Below are positions 40,401-46,400 of a stretch of 64,000 nt of DNA, one piece after another. The stretch lies in the NCBI RefSeq assembly GCF_003991155.1, contig NZ_CP031293.1; one strand, 5' to 3'. The DNA is from Escherichia coli. Lineage in GTDB: Bacteria; Pseudomonadota; Gammaproteobacteria; Enterobacterales; Enterobacteriaceae. The stretch's first letter is position 1, and each line of letters begins with the position of its first letter. Made by a program: the position numbers.

Positions 40401-43400
40401 AAGCCAGCTTCGTCAACTGGATAGCGAGGCGTGTCGGGAACTGGCGCGTCAGGCATGTGAATGCCGCAGCGCGCAGGAGATTGAAGCGTTACTCACCGCC
40501 TTTACGCCGGAAGAAGACGTTCGCCCACTGCTGGCGCTGGAGAATATCTTTGTTGATCAGGACCTTAGTAATAAAGAGCAGGCGATCCAGTTCCTGTGCG
40601 GCAACCTTGGTGTGAACGGGCGTACTGAACATCCGTTTGAGCTGGAAGAAGATGTCTGGCAGCGGGAAGAGATTGTTACTACTGGCGTTGGTTTTGGCGT
40701 GGCGATCCCGCACACCAAATCTCAGTGGATCCGTCATTCCAGTATCAGCATTGCCCGGCTGGTGAAACCGGTTGACTGGCAGTCAGAAATGGGCGAAGTC
40801 GAACTGGTGATCATGCTGACACTGGGCGCTAACGAAGGGATGAATCATGTGAAAGTCTTCTCGCAGCTGGCGCGCAAACTGGTGAATAAAAACTTCCGCC
40901 AGTCGCTGTTCGCCGCGCAAGATGCACAAAGTATTCTGACGCTGCTGGAAACGGAATTAACCTTCTGACGTTAGCCCTGAAAACGGGCGCTGTACTCTCC
41001 CGGCGTCAGGCCAAACTGACGCCGGAAGACGCGACAAAAATAGTCGCTGTCCGGAAAGCCGCAACGCTGCGCCACTTCATGAATCGACAGATGATATTTC
41101 TGCAAAATCATCCTCGCCTTCGCCATTCGCACCCAACGCACATATTCGATAAAACGCATTGTTCCATGCTGCGCAAACAGTTTTGACAGATGATTGGGCG
41201 TGATATTAAAAAACTGCGCCACGCTCTCACGGGTGAGCGGCTGGGCATAATTATCCTGAACCCAGTTACAAATGCTGTGATAGAGAAAATCGCCGCGCGG
41301 CTGCGAATTGCCCGGCGGCATATTCACCACGTTACGGCAAAGATGCAGCAAACTTAACACCAGTGGCTGAATGATATTCTGCTCCAGCGGCGAACGGCTA
41401 AGATGGGTGAGGGCGGTAAGTATCGCTTCACCTTCACCGCGTTGCAGGCTGGGAAGCTGGATCTGGCGGGCAGGATGCAACAACGACGTGGTGCGGCTAT
41501 CGTAAAACGATAACCCAAGCCAGGTCGGTGCGAACACCAGGCTTAACAGCATCACCGGTTTGTTGTTGATCGGTAAATTAGCCGCGCGCGCTGGAATAAA
41601 CAGCATTTCTCCTTCCACCATTCGCTGCTGCTTTGCTTCCAGCAGGTTGCCGTATTCGCCGCGCAGCACGATATCCAGACGGGGAAAATCAATACATAAA
41701 CTGCCCACCGGCAACGAGGCAGGCTGGCTGGCAAACCAGACGCGCCCCAGTAGTTGCGGGTTAAGCACCAGGCCGCTGAACAGATCGGCGAAAAATTGTT
41801 GATCGGCGGGCAAGCCTGGTGCTTTCATGAAAGTTCCCGATTAAAGATGCATTAACTGTCGGAATTCTTTAACTTTGCTGCGGCTGACCGGCACTTCAAA
41901 ATCCAGATCTTTCAGCCGCAGAATATAGGTGTTATTAAACCACGGTTCGATCTCGCGGATTTTGTTCAGATTGACACAAAATGAGCGATGGCAGCGGAAA
42001 AAATGCGACGGCGGCAACTTGCTGCAAAACTCGGTAATGTTCATCGGCATTACGTAGGATTCACGCCGCGTATAGACAAAGGTCATTTTCTCGTGCGCTT
42101 CGGCGTAATAGATATCGTTAATGGGCGTGACGATGATTCGCTCATCTTTCACCAGATTAATGGTGTCATTCTCACGCGTTACCGTCGCGGCAGGCGTACT
42201 GCTGGTCTGCTGTTGTTGCCAGGCTGCTTCCAGTTTTTGCAGCATCCCGGTAATGCGTGACTCCTGATACGGTTTGAGAATGTAGTCAAACGCCTCCAGT
42301 TCAAACGCTTCTACCGCATGTTCTTTCCACGCGGTGATAAACACAATAAACGGTTTATGGGCGAACTGGCTGATGTTTTGTGCCAGCAACACACCATCCA
42401 GCGACGGAATATTGATATCCAGAAAAATGGCGTCGACGCGGTTATGCTGCAAAAACTTCAACACGTCCAGACCGTCGTCAAAGGTGCCGACAATCTCCAT
42501 CTGGCTGTGCTCTTTAATTAGCCAGCTCAGTTCCTGTTGTGCCAGGAATTCGTCTTCAACAATGATGACTTTCACAATATCACTCCGGCTCAAAGCAATA
42601 ACGTAGCCTGTGAGGCGACTGGGGTGCGTTGGTTAGGAATGTAAAACGCAATTTCCGTTCCTGGTTCCAGGCGGCGGATATGCAGCCCCTCGCCATACAA
42701 TAACTTCACGCGATGATGGACATTCAGCAGGCCAATTTTATTGCCCGGCATTTCATTCGCTTCGACCCGCTCAATCACCTTTGGATCGATGCCGTGCCCG
42801 GTATCTCGCACCGCAATACGTACCCGATTACCGCACTCTGCAACGCTGATGGTGACAACGCCTTTACCTTTGCAAGGCTGGATACCGTGGACAATGGCGT
42901 TTTCCACCAACGGCTGGATCAGCAGGCTGGGAATGTAGCAATTCACCTCTTCATCAATATCATAGATAACCGTCAGCTTGTCGCCAAAGCGGGCCTGCTC
43001 AATGGCAATATAGTCTTTAATTTGATATAGCTCTTTTTTGATATCGATTTGCTCATCGTCTTTTAATTCAATGTTATAGCGCAGATAACGCGACAGATTA
43101 AAGATCAGCTGGCGAGCAGTATCCGGATTCAGACGGATTGACGATGAAATAGCGTTCAGAGCGTTAAACAGAAAATTAAAAGGGGATTGAAGGATAAATG
43201 GTGTATTAGCAATGCATCTCTTGATAATGCACATCTGCTTGGTAAATTTATTGAAATTATAATGTTAATAAAATGAGTGGTAATTTTCTTGTTAGCGCAG
43301 ATAAATTTCCTGTTTTTGAAGTGGAGTTCCTCATTTAAAGCCATTGATAAAAATGTTCTAAAACGCTGGACAGACAGAAATTAATCAGGCTATTTTCAAA

Positions 43401-46400
43401 ACAGCCACCATCGTGGCAGCGTCGCTCGGACGGTCCGGGCGCTAACGTTAATCTGAGGACATTATGGCTGACACTCGCCCTGAACGTCGCTTTACGCGTA
43501 TTGATCGTCTCCCGCCCTACGTTTTTAACATTACCGCTGAACTGAAAATGGCTGCGCGTCGGCGCGGCGAAGATATTATCGATTTCAGTATGGGTAACCC
43601 GGACGGTGCGACTCCGCCGCATATCGTCGAAAAATTATGTACGGTGGCCCAGCGCCCGGACACGCATGGTTACTCCACTTCACGCGGCATTCCGCGGTTA
43701 CGTCGCGCCATTTCCCGCTGGTATCAGGATCGCTACGACGTTGAAATCGACCCGGAATCAGAAGCCATCGTCACTATTGGTTCGAAAGAGGGCCTGGCGC
43801 ATCTGATGCTGGCGACGCTGGATCACGGTGACACAGTGCTGGTGCCGAATCCAAGTTACCCCATTCATATTTACGGCGCGGTGATTGCCGGGGCGCAGGT
43901 ACGCTCAGTGCCGCTGGTGGAAGGTGTCGATTTCTTCAACGAACTGGAACGCGCCATTCGCGAAAGTTATCCGAAACCGAAGATGATGATCCTCGGCTTC
44001 CCGTCGAACCCAACCGCGCAATGCGTGGAACTGGAATTCTTTGAGAAGGTTGTGGCGCTGGCGAAACGCTACGATGTGCTGGTGGTCCACGACCTGGCCT
44101 ATGCCGATATCGTCTACGATGGCTGGAAAGCGCCGTCAATCATGCAGGTGCCAGGTGCACGCGATGTGGCGGTCGAGTTCTTTACGCTGTCGAAAAGCTA
44201 CAACATGGCGGGCTGGCGTATCGGCTTTATGGTCGGTAACAAAACGCTGGTCAGCGCGTTGGCACGTATTAAAAGCTATCACGATTACGGCACCTTTACG
44301 CCGTTGCAGGTGGCAGCGATTGCGGCGCTGGAGGGCGATCAACAGTGCGTGCGCGACATTGCTGAACAGTACAAACGCCGCCGTGATGTACTGGTAAAAG
44401 GGTTGCATGAAGCGGGCTGGATGGTCGAAATGCCGAAGGCTTCGATGTATGTCTGGGCGAAAATCCCGGAACCGTATGCTGCCATGGGCTCACTGGAATT
44501 TGCCAAGAAACTGCTTAACGAAGCGAAGGTCTGTGTCTCGCCGGGGATCGGCTTTGGCGACTACGGCGACACGCATGTTCGCTTTGCGCTGATTGAAAAC
44601 CGCGATCGTATTCGCCAGGCGATTCGTGGAATTAAAGCGATGTTCCGTGCCGACGGTTTACTACCCGCCAGCAGCAAACATATTCACGAAAACGCGGAAT
44701 AAACACCATCGCCAGAAATGCAAACAGGAGCCAGATGGCTCCTGTTTTTCATTGCACAGTTTGCTTTTAGATCATCAGGGCAAAAGTACCGGCCCAAACG
44801 ATGACCATAAAAGAAATGCCCATAAAGAAATATTTCACTTTACATCTCTCCGCGTAATTACTGTTACGCCTGAATGACTTCATTACACCTGATACAGTGA
44901 GTTGACACCGGGCAAAACGACCTTAAAAGTCCTGTATTTTACCGTGGGCATCACCCCAGAATTCTGAGCTAAACTGCTCCAGACGGCGCTAATGTACGCC
45001 TAAAACTGAAACGAGACAAGAGGCATTTTCTTATTTACTTTTAGTAACTTACAGGTGTCTCATATCGGCGACAGTTTAATTTCTGACGGTAATAATTAGA
45101 GATTCAGCGAAGGAAAAAACCTTAAGAAAAAAGCCATAAAAACCATGAGGTTATTATGGCTGATTTGAGGAGGGAAAGAGTAAGAGCCGTTTGTTAAATG
45201 TATAGCGACGATTCTCCCACCGGGCGCGTTTTAAAGCGACGGTGGATCCATAGGTACTGCTCCGGTGCGCGCATGATCTCTTTTTCGATAATCTTGTTCA
45301 TATAGGCAGCGGCTTGATTTTCATCTGCCGGGTAGCCTTCCATCTCTGGGGTGATGTACAAACGATATCCGCTGTAATCCGCTTTTCTTACCATCGTTAC
45401 GGTTAACATGGCTGCGCCAGAGAGACGTGAAAGGACATACGTACCATTGGTTGTGGCAACATTTTCCACCGCAAAGAACGGCGCGAAGGAGCTGCCTTTA
45501 CGACCATAATCCTGATCGGGAGCAAACCATACCGCTTCACCTTTCTTCAGTGCACCGACAATGCCGCGCAGATTATTTCTGCCGATCATCGCTTTGTTAG
45601 AGCGCATGCGACCACGGGTCTGCACCCATTCCATCAGCTGATTATTATGTGGACGATAGGTGGCCATCATTGGCTGACAAAGTCCCATCACGCGGCCGCC
45701 CAGTTCCAGCGACATAAAATGGACGCCGACAACCATTACGCCGCGATTTTGCATTTGTGCGCGTTTAAGGTTATCCAGCCCTTCCACATCAAACCATTTA
45801 CGTACGCGACTGTCGGGCCAGAACCATGCCATGCCGGTTTCTACCAGCGCCATGCCGAGTGAACGAAAGTTTTCGGCAATCATCTTCTCGCGTTCTTCCG
45901 CAGAATGCTGCGGGAAGCAAAGTTCCAGGTTTTTACGGGCGATAGATTCACGACGTTTCAGGAATGGTCGCGCCATTGTGCCGATACGCGTGCCGAGAAA
46001 GCAGAGAACAGGATAAGGAAGCTGTACCCAAAGCCAGAGTACACCAAGCCCAAACCACGTGAGCCAGTAGCGAGGATGCAGAAACTCGCGTGAAAATTTG
46101 CATTTTGGAAACATAGTTACCTTCTGTAGATACGAATTGTTGTATCGCAGAAGATTCCATGTCGACAGCGGTACACTCAATTGATTAGGCCATCATGTAC
46201 GACAATGGTTCCTGTAAAGAGTGTAAAGACTAGTCAGGACATAACCACGAGGAGCATGAATGCGGTGGCTCTACTTTATCACTGGCTGACTGCTTTCAGC
46301 TACTGATTATTAATCGTGCAAAGTAAAAAGTTTTCCGCACGCAATAGCGTTGCATTTAACGTGCTGTTTTCATTGATGCTTAGCAAAAATTGCCAGAGGT

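What the first reader, a model, noticed from the sequence alone, without database searches (positions are those of the whole stretch)
42590..43463. ypdA sensor kinase appears 5'-truncated, leaving ypdB orphaned
Only 874 bp separate the ypdB start from the divergent alaC start, whereas a full LytS-type kinase (about 565 aa in K-12, from memory) needs about 1.7 kb. The surviving 214-aa ORF holds only the kinase core. Upstream of FNFLFNALN the translation reads QSPFNF rather than the family motif NPHFLF, so the phospho-accepting His may be missing. Sequence from about 43170 to 43463 is AT-rich and non-coding. This would abolish the YpdA/YpdB pyruvate-responsive system unless YpdB is cross-phosphorylated.
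Basis: partly seen in the sequence, partly recalled or inferred. Interest (0 to 1): 0.5.

Follow-up and report, generated by a model that had tools for sequence, protein, structure and literature searches.

The report
Private deletion kills pyruvate sensor ypdA
This E. coli strain has lost 1.2 kb covering the first two-thirds of the pyruvate-sensor kinase gene ypdA and its likely promoter, leaving the partner regulator ypdB intact; it is a real but ordinary strain-specific gene knockout.

Summary
Compared with the near-identical E. coli CREC-544, the 64-kb window differs by two substitutions, one 1-bp indel and a clean 1,199-bp deletion. The deletion removes ypdA codons 1-370, the first base of codon 371, and 88 bp upstream of the gene. 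Codon 371 is His371, the N-P-H-F H-box histidine, and it becomes Asn at the junction (window 43176/43177). The 214-aa ORF is a chance chimera: 19 codons of a leader uORF, the junction Asn, and YpdA 372-565. It lacks the 5TM-LytS sensor, the GAF domain and the start of the DHp domain, and keeps only a partial His_kinase domain and HATPase_c. ypdB, ypdC and alaC are intact. The deleted DNA is present in 5,420 of 5,426 complete E. coli genomes. The junction was found in no complete E. coli genome, GTDB species representative or JGI metagenome contig. It is therefore a rare, recent, private null allele of the kinase. Whether YpdB still works is unresolved: the probable proximal promoter is deleted, a strong distal promoter-like site is retained, and BtsS-to-YpdB cross-regulation is reported in uropathogenic E. 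coli. Comparable kinase-only losses exist in E. coli OkiPb01677 and in Shigella flexneri 2a 301. Interest is low.

The parts
43176..43177 (.). Deletion junction. 1,199 bp present in relatives (L003 19178-20376) are missing here. There is a 1-nt (T) junction ambiguity.
42590..43176 (-). 3' remnant of ypdA: nucleotides 1112-1698, covering the last two bases of codon 371, codons 372-565 and the stop. The 194 aa are identical to wild-type YpdA. It encodes a partial DHp domain (PF06580 model positions 14-81) and HATPase_c.
43177..43234 (-). Leader-derived 5' end of the chimeric ORF: ATG plus 18 codons of a wild-type 37-aa upstream ORF, and the first base of the junction codon AAT (Asn, replacing His371). 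The sequence before the ATG is AAGCAG with no spacing, a poor Shine-Dalgarno site.
42590..43234 (-). 214-aa chimeric ORF, here read as a ypdA pseudogene. It has no membrane sensor, no GAF domain and no phospho-acceptor His.
43177..43463 (.). Retained 287 bp of the 376-bp ypdA-alaC intergenic region (37% G+C). It holds the alaC-side promoter-like sites at 43221-43248 and 43367-43396 on the plus strand.
43256..43283 (-). Distal promoter-like site on the ypdA strand, TTACCA-16-TATAAT (10 of 12 matches), retained by the deletion. If active, it would still transcribe the remnant, ypdB and ypdC.
   Evidence: a consensus match only
41841..42575 (-). ypdB, the LytTR response regulator: intact, 244 aa, GTG start with its own GGAG Shine-Dalgarno site, identical to the CREC-544 protein.
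40971..41828 (-). ypdC, an AraC-family regulator and the third gene of the ypdABC cluster: intact, 285 aa.
43464..44702 (+). alaC, alanine transaminase: intact and 100% identical to CREC-544. It is the divergent neighbour and keeps 287 bp of upstream DNA.

Best explanation
A recent spontaneous 1,199-bp deletion arose in one lineage of an otherwise ordinary E. coli that is nearly identical to strain CREC-544. It occurred by illegitimate recombination, with 1 nt of microhomology and an imperfect 11-nt near-repeat beside both breakpoints. It removed 88 bp of the ypdA leader, probably including the proximal promoter, together with codons 1-370 and the first base of codon 371.

Shown: the remaining reading frame lacks the 5TM-LytS pyruvate-sensing membrane domain, the GAF domain, the first 13 positions of the DHp (His_kinase) domain and the phospho-accepting His371. 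It is fused in frame, by chance, to a leader uORF.

Inferred: the product, if made at all, cannot sense pyruvate, sit in the membrane or autophosphorylate, so ypdA is a null pseudogene. YpdA-dependent (low-affinity, high-pyruvate) induction of yhjX is lost. YpdB is intact but lacks its cognate kinase. Its remaining activity would depend on residual transcription from the retained distal promoter-like site and on phosphorylation by the paralogous kinase BtsS.
For: The deletion is clean on a clonal background. The flanks are 7,176 of 7,177 and 4,125 of 4,125 bases identical to CREC-544. The whole 64 kb is colinear, with only 2 substitutions and one 1-bp indel besides the deletion.

The breakpoint is at ypdA nucleotide 1112, in codon His371, and the C-terminal 194 aa are identical to wild type. 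Pfam on wild type gives 5TM-5TMR_LYT 28-192, GAF 226-343, His_kinase 359-438 and HATPase_c 456-553. The remnant has only His_kinase model positions 14-81 and HATPase_c.

In LytS-type kinases the H-box His is preceded by Pro and followed by Phe, and it is the proven phosphorylation site in BtsS (H382Q is not phosphorylated; PMC10653868). YpdA His371 sits in N-P-H-F.

The deleted DNA is present in 5,420 of 5,426 complete E. coli genomes. The junction is absent from all of them, from GTDB species representatives and from JGI metagenome contigs. The exact 214-aa product is not on record.

No repeat longer than an imperfect 11-mer lies at the breakpoints. The proximal promoter candidate (TGGTCA-17-TATCAT) lies inside the deletion and the distal one (10 of 12 matches) is retained. 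ypdB and ypdC are intact.
Against: No reads are available, so a sequencing or assembly artefact, or a subpopulation variant, cannot be formally excluded. No expression or phenotype data exist for the source strain. The loss of YpdA-dependent signalling is inferred from domain content and from K-12 literature, whose primary papers (Fried 2013, Steiner 2018) could not be read here. The promoter assignment rests on consensus matches plus an indirect reading of PMC12709180. The rest of the genome (btsS, btsR, yhjX, or a possible second ypdA copy) lies outside the window.
Confidence: 0.85

Rival explanations
1. Assembly or sequencing artefact: the source genome actually carries full-length ypdA and the 1.2-kb gap was created during assembly or polishing.
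For: No other public sequence shares the junction, so the allele rests on one assembly. The reads cannot be inspected.
Against: Assemblers collapse sequence at repeats, and the only similarity at the two breakpoints is an imperfect 11-mer that is not in register with the junction. The surrounding 64 kb is of high quality, with 3 small differences from CREC-544. One of those restores an intact yfeH that is frameshifted in CREC-544. Natural ypdA deletions of similar size do occur, as in OkiPb01677.
Confidence: 0.07
2. Deliberately engineered deletion: the source is a laboratory mutant.
For: The deletion is scarless and confined to one gene and its leader.
Against: The end points make no design sense. 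One lies in the middle of codon 371 and the other 88 bp upstream of the start, and they leave an in-frame chimera. There is no FRT or loxP scar, no marker and no restriction-site sequence at the junction. The background matches clinical and environmental isolates rather than a laboratory strain.
Confidence: 0.02
3. The remnant is expressed and has a residual or new function. For example, it could be a soluble His-less DHp/CA fragment that binds YpdB or BtsS and modulates signalling, in a dominant-negative or phosphatase-like way.
For: The ORF is in frame with an ATG that lies about 15 nt downstream of the expected start of a retained strong promoter-like site. Most of the DHp helix region and the whole ATPase domain are intact.
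Against: The Shine-Dalgarno site is poor and abuts the ATG. The in-frame fusion has a 1-in-3 chance expectation. The DHp N-terminus and the His are gone. The allele is private, with no sign of spread or conservation, so nothing suggests selection for the fragment.
Confidence: 0.05

Closest known systems
E. coli K-12 YpdA/YpdB (PyrS/PyrR), a LytS/LytTR two-component system that responds to high extracellular pyruvate and induces yhjX
   Same: It is the same locus and synteny (ypdC-ypdB-ypdA, divergent from alaC). The retained 194 aa are identical to the YpdA of the lineage, and YpdB is identical to WP_001295458.1, the K-12-type protein.
   Different: Here the kinase lacks residues 1-371 (the 5TM-LytS sensor, GAF, the start of DHp and His371) and 88 bp of leader. 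K-12 has the full 565-aa protein.
E. coli OkiPb01677 (NZ_AP042483.1), a natural ypdA deletion
   Same: A complete-genome isolate in which ypdA is deleted while ypdB, ypdC and alaC stay intact. It also arose by short-homology illegitimate recombination.
   Different: It is an independent event with different breakpoints. About 1.63 kb internal to the gene is lost, 57 nt of the 5' end and 14 nt of the 3' end remain, and the whole leader and promoter region is retained. The microhomology is 11 bp, and the genetic background differs (about 97.5% identity).
Shigella flexneri 2a str. 301, YpdA/YpdB listed as 'RR*' (regulator only, variable between strains) in PMC9496106 Table 1, from P2CS
   Same: The kinase is lost and the YpdB regulator is retained in a member of the E. 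coli/Shigella species complex.
   Different: The nature of the Shigella lesion was not examined here. Shigella shows genome-wide gene decay, whereas this window shows none apart from this deletion.
BtsS-YpdB non-cognate signalling in uropathogenic E. coli UTI89 (Steiner et al. 2018, as cited in PMC9765748)
   Same: It provides a route by which an orphan YpdB could still be phosphorylated and induce yhjX in response to pyruvate.
   Different: In UTI89 ypdA is present. Whether the source strain has btsS and expresses ypdB is unknown, since both questions lie outside the window or are untested.
E. coli EC21GDE043 (NZ_CP099721.1), ypdA annotated as a frameshifted pseudogene
   Same: It is another natural loss-of-function allele of ypdA with ypdB intact.
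   Different: The lesion is small (the gene span is 1,634 bp against 1,698 bp), not a 1.2-kb 5' deletion.

Membership tests
LytS-type sensor histidine kinase (YpdA/PyrS orthologue) | Orthologous position and sequence: between ypdB and alaC, with high identity to YpdA | tested here: met
   The remnant's 194 aa are identical to CREC-544 YpdA 372-565, and synteny is preserved.
LytS-type sensor histidine kinase (YpdA/PyrS orthologue) | N-terminal membrane-integrated 5TM-5TMR_LYT sensor domain (PF07694) | tested here: not met
   Wild type has it at residues 28-192 (E = 3e-42). It is absent from the 214-aa ORF, and there is no tblastn hit for YpdA 1-370 anywhere in the window.
LytS-type sensor histidine kinase (YpdA/PyrS orthologue) | Cytosolic GAF domain | tested here: not met
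   Wild type has GAF at 226-343. It is absent from the remnant.
LytS-type sensor histidine kinase (YpdA/PyrS orthologue) | H-box with the phospho-accepting His in a Pro-His-Phe context (BtsS His382 is proven; YpdA His371 is the equivalent) | tested here: not met
   The junction converts codon 371 from CAT (His) to AAT (Asn), so N-P-H-F-L-F becomes S-P-F-N-F-L-F. The H-box description comes from PMC10653868.
LytS-type sensor histidine kinase (YpdA/PyrS orthologue) | Complete DHp-type His_kinase domain (PF06580) | tested here: not met
   The remnant matches only model positions 14-81 of 81. Wild type matches 1-81.
LytS-type sensor histidine kinase (YpdA/PyrS orthologue) | Catalytic ATP-binding domain HATPase_c (PF02518) | tested here: met
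   Residues 105-202 of the remnant, E = 2e-11.
LytS-type sensor histidine kinase (YpdA/PyrS orthologue) | Curated NCBIfam model score above the cut-off | tested here: inconclusive
   NCBIfam has no YpdA-specific HMM. Even wild-type YpdA gives only weak generic histidine-kinase hits, far below the cut-offs.
LytTR-type response regulator YpdB (PyrR) | Intact receiver plus LytTR DNA-binding protein, orthologous to K-12 YpdB | tested here: met
   The 244-aa product is identical to the CREC-544 protein WP_001295458.1, the same accession as in the K-12-type record. The best NCBIfam similarities are LytR and BtsR.
Orphan regulator served by a non-cognate kinase (BtsS to YpdB) | btsS and the target yhjX present in the same genome; ypdB transcribed; yhjX induction dependent on BtsS | not testable with these tools
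   btsS, btsR and yhjX lie outside the 64-kb window, and no expression data are available. Only literature precedent exists (PMC9765748).

The most novel reading that the evidence does not exclude
Loss of YpdA with retention of an intact YpdB is not mere decay but a recurrent, tolerated or even selected rewiring. On this reading the low-affinity pyruvate input is discarded and YpdB (and so yhjX) is driven only by the high-affinity sensor BtsS, transcribed from the retained distal promoter. Independent kinase-only losses in this strain, in OkiPb01677 and in S. flexneri 2a 301, each with an undamaged ypdB, would be natural experiments supporting physiological BtsS-to-YpdB cross-talk outside UPEC.
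Probability: 0.1. Interest if true: 0.45.

Novelty: new member of a known kind. Interest (0 to 1): 0.2.

Why it matters
For annotation, the 214-aa ORF should be labelled a ypdA pseudogene or partial gene rather than a histidine kinase. The strain should be scored as lacking the YpdA (PyrS) pyruvate sensor.

Biologically, the strain is a natural ypdA-null with intact ypdB on a background almost identical to sequenced clinical isolates such as CREC-544. It could serve as a ready-made isogenic pair for testing whether BtsS can drive YpdB and yhjX without YpdA.

ypdA is structurally intact in about 99.9% of complete E. coli genomes, so such natural nulls are rare. Beyond that, it is an ordinary loss-of-function mutation with no new mechanism.

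Tried and rejected
1. Exact-sequence look-up of the 214-aa product in the 153-billion-gene index: not on record.
2. Exact 30-mer junction scans of GTDB species-representative genomes and JGI metagenome contigs: 0 hits each. These show only that the allele is not widespread, because draft E. coli isolate genomes are not covered.
3. NCBIfam scan for a curated YpdA model: none exists, so it gives no membership test.
4. Rfam scan of 40000-46500 at E <= 1: no RNA family in the AT-rich intergenic remnant.
5. The primary papers Fried 2013 (PMC3562098), Steiner 2018 (PMC5834395) and Vilhena 2018 (PMC5717152) are not held. What they show is cited only through PMC9765748, PMC5431176 and PMC5552118.
6. 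The mapped ypdA transcription start in PMC12709180 is in a supplement that is not held. The promoter assignment is therefore indirect.
7. Repeat-mediated deletion or assembly collapse: rejected. The only breakpoint similarity is the imperfect 11-mer AAATGGGGATT / AAAAGGGGATT, spaced 1,205 bp apart, and it is not in register with the 1,199-bp deletion.
8. Shigella origin, my first guess for a decayed two-component system: rejected. The window is essentially identical to many ordinary E. coli isolates.
9. Mobile-element involvement: rejected. No foreign sequence lies at the junction.
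Full report
**What is there**

The window carries the E. coli chromosomal stretch cysP...ptsHI-crr...glk-fryBC-ypdEF-(fryA/'ptsP')-ypdC-ypdB-[ypdA]-alaC-lpxP...evgAS-emrKY-dsdXA. At the coordinates given, a 214-aa ORF lies on the minus strand (42590-43234). It sits between ypdB (41841-42575, GTG start) and the divergent alaC (43464-44702). In a K-12-type genome ypdA is 1,698 bp (565 aa) and the ypdA-alaC spacer is 375-376 bp.

**Locating the lesion**

BLAST of window 42400-43700 against 5,426 complete E. 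coli genomes splits the query into two pieces in essentially every genome. No genome has the two pieces contiguous. The single hit covering at least 80% of the query is two joined pieces across a nearly full-length, frameshifted ypdA.

Against K-12-type L001, left homology ends at window 43176 and right homology resumes at 43176/43177, skipping 1,199 bp. The best comparator is strain CREC-544 (NZ_CP024826.1). Its flanks match at 7,176 of 7,177 bases on the left and 4,125 of 4,125 on the right, and the same 1,199 bp (L003 19178-20376) are missing. Across all 64 kb the window is colinear with CREC-544 and differs only by two substitutions, one homopolymer base and this deletion. This is a very recent change on a clonal background, not an old divergent allele.

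**Anatomy of the deletion**

On the ypdA strand the deletion begins 88 bp upstream of the GTG start and ends after the first base of codon 371. Codon 371 is the histidine of the motif S-K-I-N-P-H-F-L-F-N-A-L-N. The remaining 'AT' of CAT is joined to an A from the leader, giving AAT (Asn).

In the wild-type leader an ATG (L003 20435) opens a 37-aa upstream ORF. The deletion happens to join its first 19 codons in frame to YpdA 372-565, which creates the 214-aa ORF. Its last 194 residues are identical to wild type.

Pfam finds 5TM-5TMR_LYT (28-192), GAF (226-343), His_kinase (359-438) and HATPase_c (456-553) in the wild-type protein. The remnant has only His_kinase model positions 14-81 and HATPase_c. 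LytS-type kinases have an unusual H-box in which the conserved His is preceded by Pro and followed by Phe. In the paralogue BtsS that His (His382) is the experimentally confirmed phosphorylation site, and pyruvate binds within the transmembrane helices (PMC10653868). The remnant therefore lacks the ligand-binding and membrane module, the GAF domain and the phospho-acceptor. Any product would be a soluble fragment unable to sense pyruvate or autophosphorylate.

The sequence ahead of the chimeric ATG (AAGCAG directly abutting ATG) is a poor ribosome-binding site. I read the ORF as a pseudogene.

**How it arose**

The junction shares 1 nt (T). An imperfect 11-mer (AAATGGGGATT / AAAAGGGGATT) lies beside both breakpoints, but it is spaced 1,205 bp apart and is not in register with the 1,199-bp loss. 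There is no IS end, scar or foreign sequence at the junction. This is the signature of spontaneous illegitimate recombination. It argues against RecA-mediated recombination between repeats, assembler collapse at a repeat, and an engineered knockout, since the end points make no design sense.

**What remains**

ypdB is intact and identical to the protein found in K-12-type, CREC-544 and OkiPb01677 genomes (WP_001295458.1). It has its own GGAG Shine-Dalgarno site. ypdC and alaC are also intact. The deleted segment has no second copy in the window.

**Transcription**

The ypdA strand of the wild-type spacer has two sigma-70-like sites:
- A distal site, TTACCA-16-TATAAT (10 of 12 matches), at window 43283-43256. 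It is retained.
- A proximal site, TGGTCA-17-TATCAT (9 of 12 matches), whose expected start lies about 23 nt upstream of the GTG. It is deleted.

A 2025 study mapped a ypdA start site with strong transcript slippage and lowered reporter output with a T-to-C change at +2 (PMC12709180). Only the proximal candidate starts with T-T. I infer, without the coordinates (the supplement is not held), that the characterised promoter is the deleted one. ypdB and ypdC may therefore be under-expressed as well as orphaned, unless the distal site is active. This point is unresolved.

alaC keeps 287 bp of upstream DNA, including both promoter-like sites on its strand. I infer it is unaffected.

**How unusual it is**

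The deleted 1,199 bp are present at 80% coverage or more in 5,420 of 5,426 complete E. coli genomes, so structural loss of 5' ypdA is rare (about 0.1%). The junction 30-mer has no exact match in GTDB species representatives or in JGI metagenome contigs, and the exact 214-aa product is not on record. The allele is private as far as these collections reach.

Comparable events do exist:
- OkiPb01677 has an independent deletion of about 1.63 kb that removes nearly all of ypdA between 11-bp microhomologies, with ypdB intact.
- EC21GDE043 has a frameshifted ypdA.
- A review table based on P2CS lists Shigella flexneri 2a 301 as having only the regulator of this pair, varying between strains (PMC9496106).

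**Functional reading**

From the literature, YpdA/YpdB (PyrS/PyrR) responds to high extracellular pyruvate (threshold about 600 uM) and induces yhjX. It also feeds back on the high-affinity BtsS/BtsR system (PMC5431176, PMC5552118). Many gamma-proteobacteria, Salmonella among them, lack YpdA/YpdB altogether and rely on BtsS/BtsR (PMC5552118), so the system is dispensable.

In uropathogenic UTI89, yhjX induction is attributed to BtsS acting with the non-cognate YpdB (PMC9765748, citing Steiner 2018). The most likely consequence here is loss of YpdA-dependent signalling. A possible residual BtsS-to-YpdB route exists if ypdB is still transcribed. These consequences are inferred and were not measured.

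**Verdict**

It is a new allele of a well-known kind of event, inactivation of a sensor kinase by deletion that leaves an orphan regulator. Interest is low. Its main value is correct annotation, plus use as a natural ypdA-null for testing BtsS-YpdB cross-talk.

Noticed in passing
L003 20325-20435 (minus strand); window 43177-43234 holds its first 19 codons: The wild-type ypdA leader contains a 37-aa upstream ORF ([39 protein letters not shown]). It starts about 15 nt downstream of the expected start of the distal promoter-like site. Whether it is translated or regulatory is unknown.
   Followed up: partly
L004 (E. coli OkiPb01677, NZ_AP042483.1) 5984-6433: An independent natural deletion of about 1.63 kb removes nearly all of ypdA between 11-bp microhomologies. 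It keeps 57 nt of the 5' end, 14 nt of the 3' end and the whole leader, and ypdB is intact.
   Followed up: yes
window 15294 (yfeH, ORF 14772-15770, minus strand): The window has a run of 7 C where CREC-544 has 6. The window's yfeH is an intact 332-aa ORF, while CREC-544's yfeH is annotated as frameshifted. This is either a homopolymer error in CREC-544 or a real difference.
   Followed up: partly
window 39379 (831-aa gene, 38473-40968, plus strand): This is the only substitution in the 43 kb left of the deletion relative to CREC-544: G to A, giving Ala303Thr in the PTS enzyme-I-like multiphosphoryl transfer gene. PGAP calls it 'ptsP'; it occupies the fryA/ypdD position of K-12.
   Followed up: partly
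window 54518 (evgS, 53787-57380, minus strand): A synonymous Leu955 change (CTA to TTA) relative to CREC-544. It is the only difference in the 20.8 kb right of the deletion.
   Followed up: yes
window about 23424-25064: By colinearity with the CREC-544 annotation, this is an IS200/IS605-family remnant: a tnpA pseudogene plus an InsQ/TnpB-like gene with an internal stop. It lies between gltX and yfeD.
   Followed up: no
window 21235-21632 (minus strand) and 26078-26268 (plus strand): Two tRNA clusters: Lys(ttt)-Val(tac)x3, and Ala(ggc)x2.
   Followed up: yes
NZ_CM128544.1 (E. coli MMC-J-0091), the equivalent of window 30000-42500: This otherwise 100%-identical relative spans 13,780 bp for a 12,501-bp query, so it carries about 1.28 kb of extra DNA (possibly an IS) somewhere in mntH...ypdB.
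   Followed up: no
complete E. coli genomes: Four of 5,426 complete genomes have no match at all to the ypdB / ypdA / alaC-upstream query, which suggests larger deletions of the whole locus in a few strains.
   Followed up: no
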